Assembly: GCA_965277345.1 (NCBI GenBank)
Contig: CBDICI010000002.1
Coordinates: 208,055 to 272,054, forward strand
Reading direction: 5' to 3'
From: Caulobacteraceae bacterium
GTDB lineage: Bacteria > Pseudomonadota > Alphaproteobacteria > Caulobacterales > Caulobacteraceae
Length of the DNA: 64,000 nt
In this document: piece after piece, positions 23,041 to 45,854 of the stretch
Position numbering within the stretch: the stretch's first letter is position 1
Layout: the number at the start of each line of letters is the position of its first letter
Notes under the pieces: generated by a model
The model's database searches: none
Seen by the model: the letters and a program-made list of their open reading frames with translations, nothing else
Told to the model about the DNA's origin: nothing
Made by a program: the position numbers and the translations under genes

Positions 23041-23114
23041 TGGCTGGGGGACAAGGACTCGAACCTTGAATGACGGTACCAAAAACCGCAGTGTTACCAT
23101 TACACCATCCCCCA
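23041..23114 (-). tRNA. tRNA-Gln (anticodon UUG)
   Basis: Manual cloverleaf of 74 nt: acceptor TGGGGGA/TCCCCCA, D stem GTGT/ACAC, anticodon stem GCGGT/ACCGT with loop TTTTGGT, T arm CAAGG-TTCGAGT-CCTTG, encoded CCA. Confidence 0.9.
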
Positions 23115-23301: not shown

Positions 23302-23378
23302 CGGAGTATAGCTCAGCCTGGTAGAGCACCACGTTCGGGACGTGGGGGTCGCAAGTTCGAATCTTGCTACTCCGACCA
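23302..23378 (+). tRNA. tRNA-Pro (anticodon CGG)
   Basis: Manual cloverleaf of 77 nt: acceptor CGGAGTA/TACTCCG, D arm GCTC-AGCCTGGTA-GAGC, anticodon stem CCACG/CGTGG with loop TTCGGGA, T arm GCAAG-TTCGAAT-CTTGC, encoded CCA. Confidence 0.92.
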
Positions 23379-37226: not shown

Positions 37227-38297
37227 TCAGGCCGCCCGCCACCACCGCACGCCGCTTTCGTCCAGCGTAGCCTCCGCATGGCCGCGCTTCCACAGGCAAT
37301 TCAGGTGCGCCTGCGCCTCGCCCGTGGCCATACCGAGCAAATCGGGGCCGATCTGGCGGGCGAACAGGGCGCCGAACACGTCCACCGTGCGCCGGGGCTC
37401 GGCCAGCCGCTGGGCCAGCCGCGTCAGCCCGCGCTCGTGCCCCCGGATCAGGTGGTCGATGCGCAGGTGCAGGCCGTGGAAGGGCTCGTTATGCGCCGGC
37501 AACACCAGCACGTCGTCGGGCACGGCGCCCTTCACCTTGGCCAGGGAGGTCAGCCAGTCGGTGAGCGGATCGGCCTCCGGCTCGGTGGGATGCACCGAGA
37601 CGTTGGAGGAGATGCGCGGCAGCACCTGATCGCCCGAGATCAGCAGCTTCAGCCCCGGACAATAGAGGCAGGCGTGTTCGGGCGAGTGGCCGCAGCCCAC
37701 CACCACCCGCCAGTCGTGGCTCCCGATCCGCACCTCGTCGCCGTCGCCGAGCCGGCGATAGCTGTCCGGCAGGGGATAGAGCCCGCGCCCGAAGCCGCCG
37801 AAGCGCTGGCGGTAGGTCTCGATAGGCCCCTCCTCCCATCCGGCGGCCTTGTAGAAGCGCACGCCGTCCTCCGGCGCCTCGCGCCCCGTATCGGCCGACA
37901 GCATCCGGCAGGTGATGTATTCCAGCCGCGTCATCCACAGCCGCGCGCCGGGGAACTTGCGCAGGATCCAGCCGGCCATGCCCACATGGTCCGGATGCAT
38001 GTGGGTGCAGATCACCCGCGTTACCGGCTTGCCGGCCAGGACGCCGCCGAACGCGGCGCGCCAGCCGTCGGCGGTCTCCTTCGTGCGCAGGCCGGTATCG
38101 ACGAGGGTCCAGCCCGCGCCGTCGTCCAGCGCCCAGACATTGATGGCCTTCAGCGAACCGCCGAGCGGCATCCGCAGCCACAGCACCCCCGGCGCGATCT
38201 CCACCGCCTGGCCCGAACCCGCCTCCGGCACGGTCTCGAACGGATAGACCAGGACCGGACGCGCCTCCTCCGGCGGTTCGTCGAACCCATCGCTCAT
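37227..38297 (-). CDS. MBL-fold metallo-hydrolase
   Basis: The THMHPDH motif is present. Length is 356 aa. Confidence 0.8.
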   Translation of the reverse strand: MSDGFDEPPEEARPVLVYPFETVPEAGSGQAVEIAPGVLWLRMPLGGSLKAINVWALDDGAGWTLVDTGLRTKETADGWRAAFGGVLAGKPVTRVICTHMHPDHVGMAGWILRKFPGARLWMTRLEYITCRMLSADTGREAPEDGVRFYKAAGWEEGPIETYRQRFGGFGRGLYPLPDSYRRLGDGDEVRIGSHDWRVVVGCGHSPEHACLYCPGLKLLISGDQVLPRISSNVSVHPTEPEADPLTDWLTSLAKVKGAVPDDVLVLPAHNEPFHGLHLRIDHLIRGHERGLTRLAQRLAEPRRTVDVFGALFARQIGPDLLGMATGEAQAHLNCLWKRGHAEATLDESGVRWWRAA

Positions 38298-38476
38298 GCT
38301 TGAACTCCAACCTCGCGCCGTTGTGCGCGCAAAGTCGGGCGGCCGTCAAAGCGTCCCGCCTACATTCAGGGCCGATGGCCGCAGCGCTTGACCCTCGTGG
38401 CCCGGGTGCGCTTAAGCTCCACCTCAAGCGCCGGGCGCCGCGCCGGGCGAACCAGAAACGTACCAGGAGACCTCCC

Positions 38477-39817
38477 GTGATCAAATCCCTTGGCCTGGCG
38501 CTGGCGACGCTCATCGCGTTCGCGGCCGCGCCCATGGCGGCGCACGCCGCCGATCCTGCGCCGAAGATCGATGTCGCCATCGACGCCGATCACCACAAGC
38601 AGGGTCAGAAGGAAGCGCCCGCCGTGGTGGCGCGCTCCAACCTCACCTGCCCGATCAGCGACGCCTATTTCATCGGCGTCTCCAACCCCAAGGGCGACGA
38701 CGGCAAGCCGGTGGAGACCAAGCTGTACGAAGTGGCCTGCACCGGCGGCCTCGGCTACATCCTGTTGGCCCCCGCCGCCGGCCCGGCCAAGCACTATGAC
38801 TGCATCACCATCACCTCCAGTCCGACCCTGCGCTGCCGCCTGCCGGCCAATGCCGACGCCAAGGCGGCGATCTCGCCCTGGGTGCAGGCCTCGGGCCAGA
38901 CCTGCGCGGTCAGCGACGTGCACGGCATCGGCTCCACCCCGGCCGGCGACACCTTCTTCGAGGTGGCGTGCAGGGATCGGCTGGGCTTCATCCTGAAGCA
39001 CGACGCGGCCGGCGCCTCCACGGCGACCGATTGCGCGCTGGCGGTGGGCACCAATGTGGAATGCAAGATGACCACGGTGGAGCAGATCAAGGCCGCCGAC
39101 CGCAAGACCATCGAGACCCTGACCGCCGCCTCCGGCAAGACCTGTCAGATCAAGGACACCCGCACCATCGGCAAGCTGACCTCGGGCGGCTCGGCCTATG
39201 AGGTCGCCTGCACGGCCGGCGACGGCTATGTGCTGATGACCAAGCCGGACGGGGCGTTCCAGACGGCGGTGGCCTGCGGCAACGCCGACGCCATCGCCGG
39301 CGGTTGCAAGCTGACCGACGCGGTCGCGGCCCAGACCTCGGAAGCCGGCACCTATTCCCGCCTGGCCAAGGCCTCCAGCTTCCCCTGCGAGGTGTCGAAG
39401 TATCACTTCATCGGCATGGACAAGAACAACAACGAGGTGGTGGAGCTGGCCTGCTCCAACCGTCCCGACGGCGGCATCGCGGTGTTCCCGGCCAACAACA
39501 GCCCGGGCCACGTGTTCGACTGCGTGCAGGCCGGTTCGCTCGGCCAGCAGTGCCACCTGTCCGACCCGGCGCTGGTCTACAACCGCTATACCGCGGCCCT
39601 CGCCGCCAAGGGGCGTAACAGCTGCAAGGTATCGGGCGCGCACTGGGTCGGTCACTCGGCCGAGCACAACTCCGACCTGATCGAGACCGCCTGCGCCGAC
39701 GGCCTGCCGGGCTATGTGGTGGAGGTCAGCACCGCCGGCCAGGCGATGGACGTGCTGAGCTGCGGCCAGGCCAAGGCCTCCGGCATCCAGTGCACCCTGC
39801 CGACCAACCGGAAGTAG
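38477..39817 (+). CDS. Secreted protein composed of five ~80-90-aa four-cysteine repeats, unknown function
   Basis: GTG 38477 lies 6 nt after AGGAGA. The signal peptide is AAPMAAHA-A. The pattern C-x(20-25)-[YFVI]E[VLT]AC-x(25-30)-C-x(7-10)-C recurs five times. Confidence 0.8.
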   Translation: MIKSLGLALATLIAFAAAPMAAHAADPAPKIDVAIDADHHKQGQKEAPAVVARSNLTCPISDAYFIGVSNPKGDDGKPVETKLYEVACTGGLGYILLAPAAGPAKHYDCITITSSPTLRCRLPANADAKAAISPWVQASGQTCAVSDVHGIGSTPAGDTFFEVACRDRLGFILKHDAAGASTATDCALAVGTNVECKMTTVEQIKAADRKTIETLTAASGKTCQIKDTRTIGKLTSGGSAYEVACTAGDGYVLMTKPDGAFQTAVACGNADAIAGGCKLTDAVAAQTSEAGTYSRLAKASSFPCEVSKYHFIGMDKNNNEVVELACSNRPDGGIAVFPANNSPGHVFDCVQAGSLGQQCHLSDPALVYNRYTAALAAKGRNSCKVSGAHWVGHSAEHNSDLIETACADGLPGYVVEVSTAGQAMDVLSCGQAKASGIQCTLPTNRK

Positions 39818-39931
39818 GCCGAACGCGCGAGCCGAGCTCCGCCCGCCTGCGCTGCGCCATGGATGCCCGGAACGAGTCAGGGCAGGACGGAGAAAGGAGT
39901 GCGAGCGGCAGGTCTTCAATCGTCGCCGCGC

Positions 39932-40035
39932 CTAGAGCATGATCGTTTCGGATGGAATCATCCGAACGTGAATCATGCTTTAAACTCAAAGTGTAGACCC
40001 TGATTCACGGTTCAAGATGAACCGATCAGGGTCTA
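39932..40035 (+). repeat. ~105-bp double-hairpin repeat element, copy 1
   Basis: Near-identical to 45750-45854 in the same orientation. It contains the nested hairpins AGAGCATGAT...ATCATGCT and TAGACCCTGAT...ATCAGGGTCTA. Confidence 0.8.
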
Positions 40036-41580
40036 ACCCAGCACGGCCTCGATCAGCACGGGGCCGTCCGCGGCGATGGCTCTGGCCAGGGCGGCATCGA
40101 AGCTCTCCGCCTCGGCGCAGCGCACGGCGGGCACGCCGAAGCCCTGGGCCATGGCCACCCAGTCCATCCGCGGGTCGCCGAGATCGAGCATCCGGCGGGC
40201 GTTCGGCCCGGCATTGCCGGCGCGCGTCCGCTGCAGTTCGATGTTCAGGATGCGATAGGCGTGGTTGGCGAAGATCACCGTCACCACGTCCAGTCCCTCG
40301 CGCGCCATGGTCCACAGCCCCTGCGCCGTATAGGCGCCCGCGCCGTCGCCGCTGAGCGCCAGCACCGTGCGCCCCGGCGCGGCGACCGCGGCGCCGACGG
40401 CCATGGGTAGGGCCGCGCCGATGGCGCCGCCGGTGAGCGAGAGCCAGTCGTGCGGGCGGGCGCCGCGGGTCTGCATGTAGATCGGCAGGCCGGCGGTCAC
40501 CGCGTCGTCGCACACCACCGCCTGTTCGGGCATCCAGCGGGCGATGGAATCGCCGATGGCGTAGGGATTGAGATCGCCCTTCGGCGCGGCGGGCAGGTGC
40601 AGCGCCTGCGCGGCCACGGCCTCCGGCGCGCCCAGCGCATCGGCCAGCGCCTCCAGCGCGGCGGCCGAATCCTCGTGCAGGGCCGACAGCGTCTCCACCC
40701 CGCACCCCTCGGGCACGAGCACGCTCGGCATGGCCGGATAGGCGAAGAAGGCCACCGGCGTCTTGGTCCCCACCAGCAGCATCAGATCGACGCCCGCGAG
40801 ATCGCCGAGCGCCATCTCGCCGAAATAGAGCATCTTGTCCGGCGCGAACCGTCCGGCGCCCCGGGGCTGGCGGGTCAGAAAGGTATCCACCAGCACGCGC
40901 ACGCCCTTGGCGGCCAGCCGTCCGGCCGCGGCCAGCCCCGCCTCGCTGCAGGCGCAGGAGCCGAGCAGCAGCACCGGCTTTGACGCCGCCCTAACCGCCC
41001 GCGCCGCCGCCTCGATGGCGTGGGGGTTCACCGGCAATGGGCCGCGGCGCAGCGCCGGCGAAGGCGGCCTGCCCGGTTTCACTTCGGTCCAGGCGCTGTC
41101 GGCGGGCAGGATCAGGGTGGCGACGCCGCCGGGGGGGCCGAAGCTGGCGGCCACCGCCTCCGCGGTCAGGGCGGCGGCCTGGTCGGCGCTTTCCACCGAC
41201 TTCACCCAAACCGAGTGCGGTTTGGCCAGCGCCTCGATATCGGAGTTCAGCGGGGCGTCGTACTGGCGGTGATAGGTGGCGTGGTCGCCGACGATGTTGA
41301 CCATGGGCACGTGCGCACGGCGGGCATTGTGCAGGTTGGCCCCGCCGTTCGACAGGCCGGGGCCGAGGTGCAGCAGGGTGGAGGCGGGCTTGCCGGCCAT
41401 GCGCGCATAGCCGTCGGCCGCACCGGTGGCCACCCCCTCGAACAGGGCCAGCACCGGGCGCACCCGCGGTTCGCGGTCGAAGGCGGCCACCATCTGCATC
41501 TCGCTGGTGCCGGGATTGGAGAAGCAGATATCGACCCCCGCATCCGCCAGGGTCTTCAACACCGCTTCGGCGCCGTTCAT
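40033..41580 (-). CDS. Thiamine pyrophosphate-dependent enzyme (acetolactate synthase large-subunit-like)
   Basis: The N-terminal TPP-PYR domain (FSNPGTSEM, GYARMAGKP) and the C-terminal TPP-binding motif (GDGAGAYT...N) are present. Confidence 0.88.
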   Translation of the reverse strand: MNGAEAVLKTLADAGVDICFSNPGTSEMQMVAAFDREPRVRPVLALFEGVATGAADGYARMAGKPASTLLHLGPGLSNGGANLHNARRAHVPMVNIVGDHATYHRQYDAPLNSDIEALAKPHSVWVKSVESADQAAALTAEAVAASFGPPGGVATLILPADSAWTEVKPGRPPSPALRRGPLPVNPHAIEAAARAVRAASKPVLLLGSCACSEAGLAAAGRLAAKGVRVLVDTFLTRQPRGAGRFAPDKMLYFGEMALGDLAGVDLMLLVGTKTPVAFFAYPAMPSVLVPEGCGVETLSALHEDSAAALEALADALGAPEAVAAQALHLPAAPKGDLNPYAIGDSIARWMPEQAVVCDDAVTAGLPIYMQTRGARPHDWLSLTGGAIGAALPMAVGAAVAAPGRTVLALSGDGAGAYTAQGLWTMAREGLDVVTVIFANHAYRILNIELQRTRAGNAGPNARRMLDLGDPRMDWVAMAQGFGVPAVRCAEAESFDAALARAIAADGPVLIEAVLG

Positions 41581-41836: not shown

Positions 41837-43171
41837 TTAGGCCCCCAGCGTCTCCATGAACCGCACGGGTTCGCCGGCGGCGGGGCCGAGGATCTGGTCG
41901 TCGCGCATCACCACCCGGCCACGGATGATCGTCGCCATGGGCCAGCCGGTGACCGCCATGCCGTCGAAGGGCGTCCAGGCGGAACGGGTCTTCATGTCGG
42001 CGTGGCGCAGGGTGCGGCGCGCCTTCAGATCCACGAGGGTCAGGTCGGCGTCCCAGCCCTCCATCATCCGGCCCTTGTGGGCGATGCCGAACACGCGCTG
42101 GGGGCCGTGGCTGGTGAGGTCCACCAGCCGCTCCAGCGTCAGCCGCCCCGCCGCCACATGGGTCAGCATCACCGGCAGCAGGGTCTGCACCCCCGGCATT
42201 CCCGAGGGCGAGGCGGGATAGGGTCGCGCCTTCTCCTCCAGCGTATGGGGCGCGTGGTCGGAGCCGAGCACGTCCACCACCCCGTCGGCGATCCCCCGCC
42301 ACAGGCCGGCCCGGTGGCGCGCTTCGCGGATCGGCGGGTTCATCTGGGCCAGCCCCTTCATCCGCTCATAGGCCTCCGGCCCTTCCAGCGTCAGGTGCTG
42401 GGGCGTCGCCTCCACACTGGCCACGTCGCGGTGATGGGAGAGGAACGCGATCTCCTCCGCCGTGGTCACGTGCAGCACGTGGATGCGCTTGCCGGCGGCT
42501 CTCGCCAGGCGCACCAGCCGCTGGGTGGACTGGATGGCGGACTGGGCGTCGCGCACCTCCGGATGGCTGGTCCAGTCGCCGGTGCGGGCCAGCGGGCGGC
42601 GCTCGGCCAGGCGGTACTCGTCCTCGGAGTGGAAGGCGGCCCGGCGGCGGATGCTGGCCAGCACCGCCGCCACCCCCGCATCGTCGGCCACCAGCAGGGT
42701 GCCGGTGGAGGCGCCCATGAACACCTTGATCCCGCAACAGCCGGGCAGGCGCTCCATCTCGCCGAGATAGGCGGCGTTGGCGTGGGTGCCGCCCACATAG
42801 AAGGCGTGGTCGCAGTGCATCCGGCCGGCGGCGCGGTTCAGCTTGTCGGCCAAAGCGTTCGGGTCCGTGGTGGTGGGCTCGGTGTTCGGCATCTCGAACA
42901 CAGCGGTGACCCCGCCCATGACCGCGCATTCCGAGCCGGTGGCCAAATCCTCCTTCCACTCCAGTCCCGGTTCGCGGAAGTGGACCTGGCTGTCGATCAC
43001 GCCCGGCATCACGGTCAGCCCGCGCGCATCGAACACCTCGCCCGCCTCCGCCTGGCCGAGGTCGCCGACGGTGACGATCCGGCCGGCGCGCACCCCCACG
43101 TCGGCCATCCCGCGTCCGGAATGATTCACCACCTCGCCGCCGCGGACGATCAGGTCATAGGTTTCAGGCAT
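41837..43171 (-). CDS. pyrC: Dihydroorotase (amidohydrolase, allantoinase-like class)
   Basis: The DSQVHFREPG metal motif is present. Length is 444 aa, with a typical multifunctional-type dihydroorotase pattern. Confidence 0.85.
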   Translation of the reverse strand: MPETYDLIVRGGEVVNHSGRGMADVGVRAGRIVTVGDLGQAEAGEVFDARGLTVMPGVIDSQVHFREPGLEWKEDLATGSECAVMGGVTAVFEMPNTEPTTTDPNALADKLNRAAGRMHCDHAFYVGGTHANAAYLGEMERLPGCCGIKVFMGASTGTLLVADDAGVAAVLASIRRRAAFHSEDEYRLAERRPLARTGDWTSHPEVRDAQSAIQSTQRLVRLARAAGKRIHVLHVTTAEEIAFLSHHRDVASVEATPQHLTLEGPEAYERMKGLAQMNPPIREARHRAGLWRGIADGVVDVLGSDHAPHTLEEKARPYPASPSGMPGVQTLLPVMLTHVAAGRLTLERLVDLTSHGPQRVFGIAHKGRMMEGWDADLTLVDLKARRTLRHADMKTRSAWTPFDGMAVTGWPMATIIRGRVVMRDDQILGPAAGEPVRFMETLGA

Positions 43172-45749: not shown

Positions 45750-45854
45750 CTAGAGCATGATCGTTTCGGATGGAATCATCCGAAGCGTGAATCATGCTCT
45801 AAACTCAAAGTGTAGACCCTGATTCACGGCTCGATATGAACCGATCAGGGTCTA
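45750..45854 (+). repeat. ~105-bp double-hairpin repeat element, copy 2
   Basis: Same orientation as 39932-40035 and differs at only a few positions. Stems AGAGCATGAT/ATCATGCTCT and TAGACCCTGAT/ATCAGGGTCTA are perfect. Confidence 0.8.

What the first reader, a model, noticed from the sequence alone, without database searches (positions are those of the whole stretch)
38477..39817. Secreted protein made of five tandem four-cysteine repeats (20 Cys), unknown family
Seen: a Sec signal (AAPMAAHA-A) is followed by five units of about 80-90 aa. They begin at LTCPISD, TCAVSD, TCQIKD, PCEVSK and SCKVSG. Each unit shares the pattern C-x-[VI]-[SK]-x(15-22)-[YFVI]-E-[VLT]-A-C-x(2-4)-G-x(20-30)-C-x(7-10)-C. 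The regular spacing suggests two disulfides per module and a beads-on-a-string periplasmic or surface protein. I cannot assign it to a named domain. It has its own promoter-like TTGACC-N17-CTTAAG upstream (about 38389-38417).
Basis: seen in the sequence. Interest (0 to 1): 0.65.

Follow-up and report, generated by a model that had tools for sequence, protein, structure and literature searches.

The report
Exported five-module cysteine-repeat protein, undescribed family
This is a real gene for an exported protein made of five similar small modules, each held by four unchanging cysteines; it belongs to a widespread protein family of stalked freshwater and soil bacteria (Caulobacterales) that nobody has described, and its function is still unknown.

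Summary
Window 38477-39817 (+) encodes a 446-aa protein with a Sec-type signal peptide and 20 Cys in five homologous units (all ten unit-versus-unit profile comparisons significant, E 3e-8 to 6e-24). AlphaFold2 models are confident (pLDDT 89-90).

No known family matches: Pfam, NCBIfam, PHROGs, PADLOC and PDB sequence or profile searches return nothing, and Foldseek finds nothing significant for a single unit.

The family has at least 654 representative clusters, all annotated 'hypothetical'. Named members are Caulobacter, Asticcacaulis and Brevundimonas. Across 227 full-length members down to 25 % identity, the 20 Cys and one Glu per unit are invariant. Orthologs keep one syntenic slot but have 5, 4 or 3 units (Brevundimonas has 3).

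Rare fusions attach the block to exported caspase-like peptidases, Sel1+TonB_C or cytochrome c. The TTGACC-N17-CTTAAG promoter is conserved upstream of four orthologs.

Best reading: a disulfide-stapled periplasmic binding or scaffold protein. The architecture is well supported; the function is inferred. This is a new domain family of a familiar general kind, of moderate interest.

The parts
38388..38416 (+). Promoter-like element: -35 TTGACC (38388-38393), 17-nt spacer, -10-like CTTAAG (38411-38416)
   Evidence: Read directly. TTGACC-N17/18-[CT]TTA[AT]G is conserved 46-64 nt before the start codon in the window, L005, L007 and L002 while the spacers differ. L001 has TTGACC-N17-CTATGT by eye in the alignment; the regex did not match it. 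The E. coli sigma-70 consensus scan does not call it. It resembles the alphaproteobacterial housekeeping consensus CTTGAC-N17-CTATAT (from memory, not tested).
38465..38469 (+). Shine-Dalgarno AGGAG, 7 nt before the GTG start
   Evidence: Sequence. CCAGGAG is conserved in the orthologous upstream regions.
38477..39817 (+). CDS of the 446-aa cysteine-repeat protein (GTG start, TAG stop)
   Evidence: GC3 0.93. 575 homologs at E<=1e-3. N-termini of homologs align to this start.
38477..38548 (+). Signal peptide, aa 1-24 (MIKSLGLALATLIAFAAAPMAAHA, predicted cleavage AHA|AD)
   Evidence: Sequence features. Modelled as disordered, pLDDT below 50 for residues 1-25. A hydrophobic N-terminus with an AXA-like site occurs in 226 of 227 homologs, and a lipobox-like motif in only 6.
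38573..38839 (+). Unit 1 (aa 33-121): helix 37-53, four strands 60-108; Cys 58, 88, 109, 120; invariant E85 and G93
38840..39070 (+). Unit 2 (aa 122-198): starts with junction motif L122-P123-x-N125; Cys 143, 165, 186, 196; invariant E162
39071..39313 (+). Unit 3 (aa 199-279): helix 201-219, strands 225-266; Cys 223, 245, 267, 277; invariant E242
   Evidence: (single-unit model, pLDDT 89.8).
39314..39559 (+). Unit 4 (aa 280-361): the most conserved unit (EVVELACSNRPDG); Cys 304, 326, 349, 359; invariant E323; absent from 3-unit orthologs
39560..39814 (+). Unit 5 (aa 362-446): Cys 383, 406, 429, 439; invariant E403; conserved ETAC-x-DG-x-PG and C-terminal C-x-LP-x-N motifs; absent from 3-unit orthologs
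39932..40035 (.). 104-bp two-hairpin palindromic repeat element in the convergent spacer between this gene and the TPP-enzyme gene. It is a possible terminator and is not specific to this gene.
   Evidence: The RNA fold of 39818-40000 is -76.2 kcal/mol, z = -3.2. A second copy of about 95 % identity lies at 45750-45853. No canonical intrinsic terminator was found.

Best explanation
The gene encodes a Sec-exported, soluble protein of the cell envelope, most likely periplasmic. The mature form is 422 aa, 43.5 kDa, pI about 6. It consists of five homologous modules of about 80 aa that arose by ancient internal duplication. Each module is one alpha-helix packed on a four-stranded antiparallel beta-meander. 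Each module carries four invariant cysteines that most likely form two disulfides made by the periplasmic Dsb system. Short, conserved junctions (C4-x-L-[PT]-x-[ND]) join the modules in a fairly fixed geometry. The gene is transcribed alone from a conserved housekeeping-type promoter and is inherited vertically as a core-like gene of Caulobacterales. I propose that it works as a non-catalytic, oxidation-stabilised binding platform that holds or presents a partner in the envelope, either a protein or a wall/glycan component. The invariant Glu of each module would be a candidate contact or fold-critical residue. Shown here: the gene, the repeats, export-type N-terminus, the fold class, absence from known families, distribution, synteny, variable module number and domain fusions. 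Inferred: disulfide formation and pairing, periplasmic location, and the binding or scaffold role.
For: The gene and repeats are real. AlphaFold2 gives pLDDT 89.0 and pTM 0.68 for the whole protein, with helix plus four strands in each unit, and pLDDT 89.8 and pTM 0.77 for a single unit. In 227 full-length proteins down to 25 % identity, 189 have exactly 20 Cys, and all 20 Cys, five Glu and the Gly after Cys2 are invariant. In 1,354 units, 1,187 keep all four Cys; the others are gap or edge truncations plus one substitution. A signal peptide occurs in 226 of 227 and lipobox-like motifs in 6. There is no CxxC or CxC redox or metal motif. No catalytic family is detected. The whole five-unit block is reused as the non-catalytic part of exported multidomain proteins: Peptidase_C14 plus block (P0173 E 1e-34; P0198 E 1e-29), Sel1+TonB_C plus block (P0165), and cytochrome c plus block (P0219). 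Prokaryotic caspase homologs typically carry interaction or sensor domains in that C-terminal position (PMC5756287). The gene is monocistronic with a conserved promoter. It occupies one syntenic slot next to the DHOase-like/GT9/YgfZ block in the window, Caulobacter, Asticcacaulis and a 3-unit ortholog.
Against: There is no direct evidence for any partner or ligand. No functionally linked neighbour is conserved, because the syntenic genes are housekeeping and the upstream neighbour varies (MBL-fold, FlmG, enoyl-CoA hydratase). The fusions are rare metagenomic singletons. Units 4 and 5, which have the most conserved loops, are missing in Brevundimonas-type orthologs, so any single conserved binding site on them cannot be universal. 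An invariant Glu per unit could equally be purely structural.
Confidence: 0.5

Rival explanations
1. It is a periplasmic inhibitor or regulator of proteases or wall hydrolases. Each helix-plus-sheet module would act like a cystatin, PepSY or BLIP-type inhibitory domain, and the multi-module chain would inhibit several enzyme molecules or one large target, for example the exported caspase-like peptidases.
For: The unit topology, one helix packed on a four-stranded antiparallel sheet, is that of the cystatin-like and PepSY/BLIP-like inhibitor folds (my knowledge of SCOP and Pfam descriptions). The best, non-significant Foldseek hits include small Bacteroides periplasmic proteins 4poi and 4dsd (E 0.19-1.1, TM 0.36-0.37) and the cystatin-derived Adhiron 4n6t (74 aligned columns, TM 0.42, E 3.2). 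The block is fused to Peptidase_C14 in two independent representatives, and a second C14 gene sits next to one of them. Tandem disulfide-bonded cystatin domains exist in kininogens and fetuins (my knowledge).
Against: No sequence or profile match to Cystatin, PepSY, PepSY_like or BLIP appears, even at E<=10 on 85 separate units. There is no QxVxG motif. All fold matches have TM below 0.5 and E above 0.05. No protease gene is a conserved neighbour of the stand-alone gene.
Confidence: 0.15
2. It is a structural envelope protein: a rigid disulfide-stapled strut or spacer in the periplasm. It might be tethered to peptidoglycan or the outer membrane and contribute to the envelope or stalk architecture typical of Caulobacterales.
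For: Named members are restricted to Caulobacterales. The housekeeping-type promoter and core-like vertical inheritance fit a structural role. The junctions are short, conserved and confidently modelled, with pTM 0.68. Module number varies (3, 4, 5) as expected for a length-tunable spacer. The family often ends in Lys (74 of 227), which recalls the peptidoglycan-linked C-terminal Lys of Braun's lipoprotein (my knowledge).
Against: There is no lipobox, no peptidoglycan-binding, OmpA-like, SPOR or LysM domain, and no beta-barrel or anchor. The C-terminal Lys is not conserved, being last in only 74 of 227. The mature N-terminus is variable, so there is no conserved attachment motif. Abundance is unknown.
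Confidence: 0.15
3. The cysteines are functional thiols rather than disulfides, so the protein would be a metal-binding or redox-buffering protein of the envelope.
For: There are 20 invariant Cys plus 12 His in the window protein. One family member is fused to a cytochrome c domain. A CusF-like gene lies a few genes away in one relative (L005).
Against: There are no CxxC, CxC or other clustered Cys motifs. The Cys sit at strand ends with 10-30-residue spacing, typical of structural disulfides. The protein is exported by Sec into an oxidising compartment. The His residues are not conserved. The confident models were obtained without any cofactor.
Confidence: 0.05
4. It is secreted beyond the outer membrane or displayed on the surface, and acts as an adhesin or matrix or holdfast-associated protein.
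For: Tandem disulfide-rich modules are common in extracellular adhesive proteins (general knowledge). The organisms are surface-attached and prosthecate.
Against: There is no autotransporter, T1SS, PEP-CTERM, sortase-like or S-layer anchoring signal and no Pfam adhesin domain. No secretion-system gene is linked. The fusion partners (TonB_C, cytochrome c, signal-peptide caspase) are periplasmic-type domains.
Confidence: 0.07

Closest known systems
PepSY / PepSY_like / BLIP-like small periplasmic alpha+beta domains (Pfam PF03413, PF11396, PF07467)
   Same: Both are exported bacterial modules of 60-80 aa with one N-terminal helix packed on a four-stranded antiparallel sheet. Both often occur in tandem and act by binding proteins. 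The top, non-significant Foldseek PDB hits are small Bacteroides 'putative periplasmic proteins' 4poi and 4dsd, which I recall as PepSY-like (unverified).
   Different: There is no HMM match even at E<=10 on the whole protein or on 85 single units. The fold matches have TM 0.36-0.37 and E of at least 0.19. PepSY and BLIP domains do not carry the invariant four-Cys plus Glu signature.
Cystatin-like fold and tandem cystatin-domain proteins (kininogen, fetuin; Pfam PF00031)
   Same: Both have alpha-beta(4) topology and, in type-2 and type-3 cystatins, two disulfides per domain and tandem arrays of domains in secreted proteins (my knowledge). The cystatin-derived Adhiron 4n6t aligns over 74 columns with TM 0.42.
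   Different: That match is not significant (E 3.2). There is no QxVxG inhibitory loop and no Pfam Cystatin hit. The Cys positions differ, and cystatins are eukaryotic families.
Helicobacter cysteine-rich proteins (Hcp) and other Sel1-like repeat proteins
   Same: These are also Sec-exported bacterial proteins built of tandem modules, each stapled by a disulfide, with lineage-restricted distribution and a binding or scaffold role (my knowledge).
   Different: Hcp modules are all-alpha Sel1-like repeats of about 36 aa with one disulfide each, and Pfam Sel1 detects them. Here the units are about 80-aa alpha+beta modules with four Cys and no Sel1 signal.
Beta-propeller proteins (WD40, NHL, prolyl-oligopeptidase and lectin propellers)
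   Same: Both contain repeated four-stranded antiparallel meanders. The full-length model draws propellers as its top Foldseek hits (E about 1e-4).
   Different: Global superposition fails (TM 0.10-0.15, rmsd 17-27 A). Each unit also has a long helix, which propeller blades lack. This is not a propeller.

Membership tests
Internal tandem-repeat protein (five homologous units) | The units are detectably homologous to one another beyond their shared cysteines | tested here: met
   hhalign of the five unit profiles gives probability 95-99.6 % and E 3e-8 to 6e-24 in all 10 pairs. A pooled-unit HMM finds exactly five domains in the window, i-E 1e-20 to 5e-24, and none elsewhere.
Sec/SPase I exported soluble protein | An N-terminal signal peptide with a positive n-region, a hydrophobic h-region and an AXA cleavage site, and no lipobox Cys | tested here: met
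   MIKSLGLALATLIAFAAAPMAAHA|AD. The same features occur in 226 of 227 homologs, and a lipobox-like motif in 6. The test was rule-based only; no SignalP was available and no experiment was done.
Disulfide-bonded module (two S-S per unit) | The cysteines are oxidised and paired within each unit | not testable with these tools
   This is inferred from invariance, export, an even number of Cys per unit and the absence of CxxC motifs. Model coordinates were not returned, so S-S distances and pairing (C1-C2/C3-C4 or C1-C4/C2-C3) are unknown.
PepSY / PepSY_like / BLIP (Pfam PF03413, PF11396, PF07467) | A match to the family HMM | tested here: not met
   Pfam gives 0 families at E<=10 for the whole protein. 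Among 85 single units scanned separately, none hits these families.
PepSY / PepSY_like / BLIP (Pfam PF03413, PF11396, PF07467) | The fold superposes on solved members (TM above 0.5, significant E) | tested here: inconclusive
   The best PDB hits are 4poi_A (E 0.19, TM 0.37) and 4dsd_A (E 1.1, TM 0.36). The topology is compatible but the scores are below significance, and the family assignment of those entries is from memory.
Cystatin (Pfam PF00031) | A family HMM match and the QxVxG inhibitory hairpin | tested here: not met
   There is no Pfam hit and no QxVxG in the sequence. The Adhiron 4n6t match has TM 0.42 and E 3.2.
Beta-propeller | Blades arranged in a closed ring, giving a global structural match | tested here: not met
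   Full-length Foldseek hits to propellers have TM 0.10-0.15 and rmsd 17-27 A.
Any curated family (Pfam-A, NCBIfam, PHROGs, PADLOC, PDB sequences) | A sequence or profile match at permissive thresholds | tested here: not met
   all returned 0 hits. The precomputed Pfam column is empty for all listed homologs.
Thiol-redox or metal-binding Cys proteins | CxxC, CxC or clustered Cys/His ligand motifs | tested here: not met
   There is no CxxC or CxC, and the His residues are not conserved.

The most novel reading that the evidence does not exclude
The module is a previously unrecognised, Caulobacterales-centred periplasmic domain superfamily. Its invariant Glu, one per module, would form a repeated ligand-binding site. 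The free-standing 3-5-module protein would then be a specific envelope receptor or regulator, for example one that docks and controls exported caspase-like peptidases or reads out a peptidoglycan or LPS-core feature. In that case it would be neither a passive scaffold nor a diverged PepSY or cystatin.
Probability: 0.15. Interest if true: 0.6.

Novelty: new variant of a known kind. Interest (0 to 1): 0.4.

Why it matters
The family is large (at least 654 clusters at 50 % identity), strongly constrained, and apparently a core envelope component of Caulobacterales, yet no curated family describes it and no function is known. Defining it as a domain family, with its C-x(21-29)-C-x(20-22)-C-x(9-10)-C signature and an invariant Glu three residues before Cys2, would improve annotation of hundreds of 'hypothetical proteins'. 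It would also give the Caulobacter, Asticcacaulis and Brevundimonas model systems a tractable new envelope protein. The natural 3-, 4- and 5-module series and the fusions to caspase-like peptidases suggest direct experiments. It does not by itself bear on a long-standing open question.

Tried and rejected
1. 'It is the classical Caulobacter flaG gene.' In two Caulobacter-type genomes the gene follows a 575-589-aa TPR protein divergent from flbT-flaF. The literature shows that this neighbour is FlmG, the flagellin O-glycosyltransferase CCNA_01524, and that its downstream gene in C. crescentus is flmH, an acetyltransferase (PMC7591256). The upstream neighbour differs in other lineages (MBL-fold, enoyl-CoA hydratase). 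The adjacency is therefore positional, and the idea was rejected.

2. 'It partners with the divergent MBL-fold protein', by analogy with BLIP and beta-lactamase. The MBL-fold protein has no signal peptide (translation) and is not the neighbour in Caulobacter or Asticcacaulis. Rejected.

3. Beta-propeller. Rejected because TM is about 0.1.

4. 'Repeat number is fixed at five.' This was my own interim conclusion. Searches overturned it: there are complete 3- and 4-unit positional orthologs.

5. Inferring disulfide pairing from correlated Cys loss. This was impossible, because no unit has lost a pair.

6. Searching with the single-unit profile through the word-indexed database returned only C-terminal fragments.

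As a result, a systematic species table and the C. crescentus question could not be completed.

8. Literature searches for locus tags and for cysteine-rich periplasmic Caulobacter proteins found nothing relevant.

9. No phage or defence relationship was found.

10. A covalent-attachment motif (N-terminal Ala-Asp or C-terminal Lys) is not conserved.
Full report
**1. The observation**

It runs from GTG 38477 to the TAG stop at 39815-39817 on the + strand and encodes 446 aa. GC at codon position 3 is 0.93, against 0.61 and 0.52 at positions 1 and 2, which in this 68 % GC window marks the frame as coding. An AGGAG at 38465-38469 lies 7 nt before the GTG. The N-termini of homologs align to this start.

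The protein has 20 Cys in five groups of four with nearly constant gaps: 30-21-11, 22-21-10, 22-22-10, 22-23-10 and 23-23-10. Profiles of the five units, built from 41 homologs, match each other in all ten pairings (hhalign probability 95-99.6 %, E from 3e-8 to 6e-24). The units are therefore truly homologous, the product of ancient internal duplication, and not a chance Cys pattern. A pooled-unit HMM finds exactly five domains in this ORF and nothing else in the six-frame translation of the window.

The N-terminus, MIKSLGLALATLIAFAAAPMAAHA|ADPAP, has the features of a Sec/SPase I signal and no lipobox.

**2. Structure**

AlphaFold2 with a 41-sequence alignment gives mean pLDDT 89.0 and pTM 0.68. 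Only residues 1-25, the signal peptide, fall below 50. Each unit is one helix followed by four antiparallel strands: H37-53/E60-108, H123-138/E145-185, H201-219/E225-266, H282-299/E306-347 and H364-377/E385-427.

A single unit modelled with an 85-unit alignment gives pLDDT 89.8 and pTM 0.77, with the same alpha1-beta1-beta2-beta3-beta4 order. Cys1 lies just before beta1, Cys2 ends beta2, Cys3 follows beta4 and Cys4 lies in the tail. That tail leads straight into the next helix through a conserved C4-x-L-[PT]-x-[ND] junction.

High confidence across the junctions and the pTM value argue for a defined inter-unit geometry rather than floppy beads. I could not inspect coordinates, so the overall shape and the disulfide pairing remain unknown.

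**3. Comparison with known families**

These searches returned nothing:
- Pfam-A and NCBIfam at E<=10 on the whole protein.
- PHROGs and PADLOC at E<=1.
- PDB sequences with the protein and with the single-unit profile.
- Pfam on each of the 85 single units separately at E<=10, which gave only scattered one-off noise and no PepSY, cystatin or BLIP.

Foldseek results were also uninformative:
- The full-length model against the PDB returned beta-propellers at E about 1e-4 but with TM 0.10-0.15 and rmsd 17-27 Å. That is local blade-like similarity only.
- The single unit gave nothing significant. The best hits were 4poi_A (E 0.19, TM 0.37) and 4dsd_A, both small Bacteroides periplasmic proteins that I recall as PepSY-like (unverified), and the cystatin-derived Adhiron 4n6t (TM 0.42, E 3.2).
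- The viral library gave no hit below E 0.06.

The unit thus has the common helix-on-four-stranded-sheet (cystatin-like, PepSY/BLIP-like) topology, but it is not a detectable member of any described family.

**4. The family**

The word-indexed search found 575 homologs at E<=1e-3. All were named 'hypothetical protein' or unnamed, and none had a precomputed Pfam domain. The exhaustive HMMER scan of 1.84 billion representatives with the single-unit profile found 654 clusters at E<=1e-3, of which 183 scored E<=1e-30.

Among 227 full-length five-unit proteins, 189 have exactly 20 Cys, the median length is 449 aa, and identity to the window protein falls to about 25 %. Over this set the invariant positions are:
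- the 20 Cys;
- one Glu per unit, always three residues before Cys2 (E85, E162, E242, E323, E403);
- G93, with its equivalents in the other units at 0.94-0.98;
- N125, at 0.99.

Of 1,354 units, 1,187 show all four Cys. The rest are alignment-edge or fragment truncations plus a single substitution.

All named members belong to Caulobacterales:
- Caulobacter sp. S45 and Caulobacteraceae MAGs;
- Asticcacaulis taihuensis, A. sp. AC402, A. sp. AC460 and A. biprosthecium C19 (ABI_32010);
- Brevundimonas vesicularis and B. sp. SPF441.

**5. Repeat number varies**

Five units dominate (216 apparently complete proteins). There are also complete 4-unit proteins of 366-391 aa and 3-unit proteins of 286-334 aa.

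The 3-unit protein P0258 is internal on a 102-kb contig, is seen on at least 24 contigs, and occupies the same slot as the window gene: divergent MBL-fold gene | gene | DHOase-like amidohydrolase, then GT9. The 4-unit P0234 is complete within its contig.

Unit-specific HMMs show that the 3-unit form is U1-U2-U3 and the 4-unit forms are U1-(U2 or U3)-U4-U5. The Brevundimonas proteins are of the 3-unit type. Units 4 and 5 carry the most conserved loops of the five-unit proteins (EVVELACSNRPDG; ETAC-x-DG-x-PG), yet they are dispensable in some lineages.

**6. Genomic context and expression**

In the window the gene is flanked by a divergent MBL-fold gene (37227-38297, -) and a convergent TPP-enzyme gene (40033-41580, -). 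A DHOase-like amidohydrolase follows at 41837-43171 (-) (families by comparison).

Across the eight distinct contexts examined, the only constant neighbours are the DHOase-like amidohydrolase and the GT9 glycosyltransferase, with YgfZ alongside wherever the fetched locus reaches it. The upstream gene varies: MBL-fold, FlmG, or enoyl-CoA hydratase. This is the pattern of a vertically inherited single gene, not of a functional operon.

An E. coli-consensus scan does not call it. However, TTGACC-N17/18-[CT]TTA[AT]G is conserved 46-64 nt before the start codon in four loci with unrelated spacers, which is a phylogenetic footprint. It resembles the alphaproteobacterial housekeeping consensus CTTGAC-N17-CTATAT (from memory).

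No canonical terminator follows the gene. The convergent spacer holds a strongly folding 104-bp palindromic element that is repeated at 45750-45853.

**7. Fusions**

In rare metagenomic proteins the intact five-unit block is joined to other exported domains:
- Peptidase_C14 (caspase) in P0173 (E 1e-34) and P0198 (E 1e-29). Both have a signal peptide and the His/Cys dyad motifs. In L009 a second C14 gene precedes P0173.
- Sel1 + TonB_C in P0165.
- Cytochrome c in P0219. In L008 this gene lies near PBP2/RodA, a DegP-like protease and signal peptidase.

Prokaryotic caspase homologs typically carry protein-interaction or sensor domains C-terminal to the catalytic domain (PMC5756287). That is the position this block occupies.

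**8. Interpretation**

*Shown:*
- an exported-type protein of five homologous alpha+beta modules of about 80 aa;
- a four-Cys plus one-Glu signature that is invariant across the family;
- an undescribed family centred on Caulobacterales;
- its own conserved promoter;
- a variable module number;
- reuse of the block as a non-catalytic module.

*Inferred:*
- two Dsb-made disulfides per module;
- periplasmic location;
- a binding or scaffold function.

I commit to 'disulfide-stapled periplasmic binding platform' at a confidence of about 0.5 overall. That figure combines about 0.85 for the architecture and export with about 0.35 for the binding role.

The rivals are:
- a protease or hydrolase inhibitor of cystatin/PepSY/BLIP type (0.15);
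- a structural strut or tether of the envelope (0.15);
- a surface or secreted adhesin (0.07);
- a thiol or metal protein (0.05).

**9. Novelty and interest**

The proteins are present in databases only as hypotheticals, and no curated family, structure or paper covers them. The general kind, an exported tandem disulfide-rich alpha+beta module protein, is familiar. I therefore rate it a new variant of a known kind, in effect a new domain family, with moderate interest (0.4). It is strongly conserved and experimentally tractable, but there is no surprising mechanism yet.

Noticed in passing
window 39932-40035 and 45750-45853: A palindromic element of about 104 bp with two hairpins, AT-richer than the genome, occurs twice at about 95 % identity with unrelated flanks. 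Its exact 20-mer core is TTCGGATGGAATCATCCGAA, with 0 matches expected by chance. Copy A ends exactly at the stop codon of the TPP-enzyme gene (40033-40035). It looks like a REP/MITE-like intergenic repeat and a possible bidirectional terminator. It was not found in the 12 related loci fetched by then.
   Followed up: partly
window 37227-38297 (-) and orthologous loci L005, L007, L013: A 356-aa cytoplasmic MBL-fold protein (Lactamase_B + B_lactamase-like_C) is divergently transcribed from the same 179-bp intergenic region in several lineages, but not in Caulobacter or Asticcacaulis. No functional link to the exported protein is evident.
   Followed up: partly
L002, L010, L011 (Caulobacter-type genomes), just upstream of the ortholog: In these genomes the ortholog lies 55-130 bp downstream of, and co-directional with, the flagellin O-glycosyltransferase gene flmG (TPR + GT-B), which is divergent from flbT-flaF. 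In C. crescentus the gene after flmG is flmH instead (PMC7591256). Co-transcription with flmG in L010 and L011, where the gap is 55 bp, was not examined.
   Followed up: partly
L009 931-5006: Two adjacent, overlapping Peptidase_C14 (caspase-like) genes. The second (P0173, 829 aa) carries a signal peptide, a caspase domain, a linker and the complete five-unit cysteine-repeat block.
   Followed up: partly
window 23041-23114 (-) and 23302-23378 (+): Divergent tRNA-Gln(TTG) and tRNA-Pro(CGG) genes. These are the only Rfam and ARAGORN hits in the window.
   Followed up: no
window 38300-39817 (+) and 38366-39919 (-): Long alternative ORFs overlap the gene: a TTG-started 505-aa extension in the same frame and a 517-aa antisense ORF. 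Both are typical high-GC artefacts. Homolog N-termini and GC3 support only the 38477 start on the + strand.
   Followed up: yes
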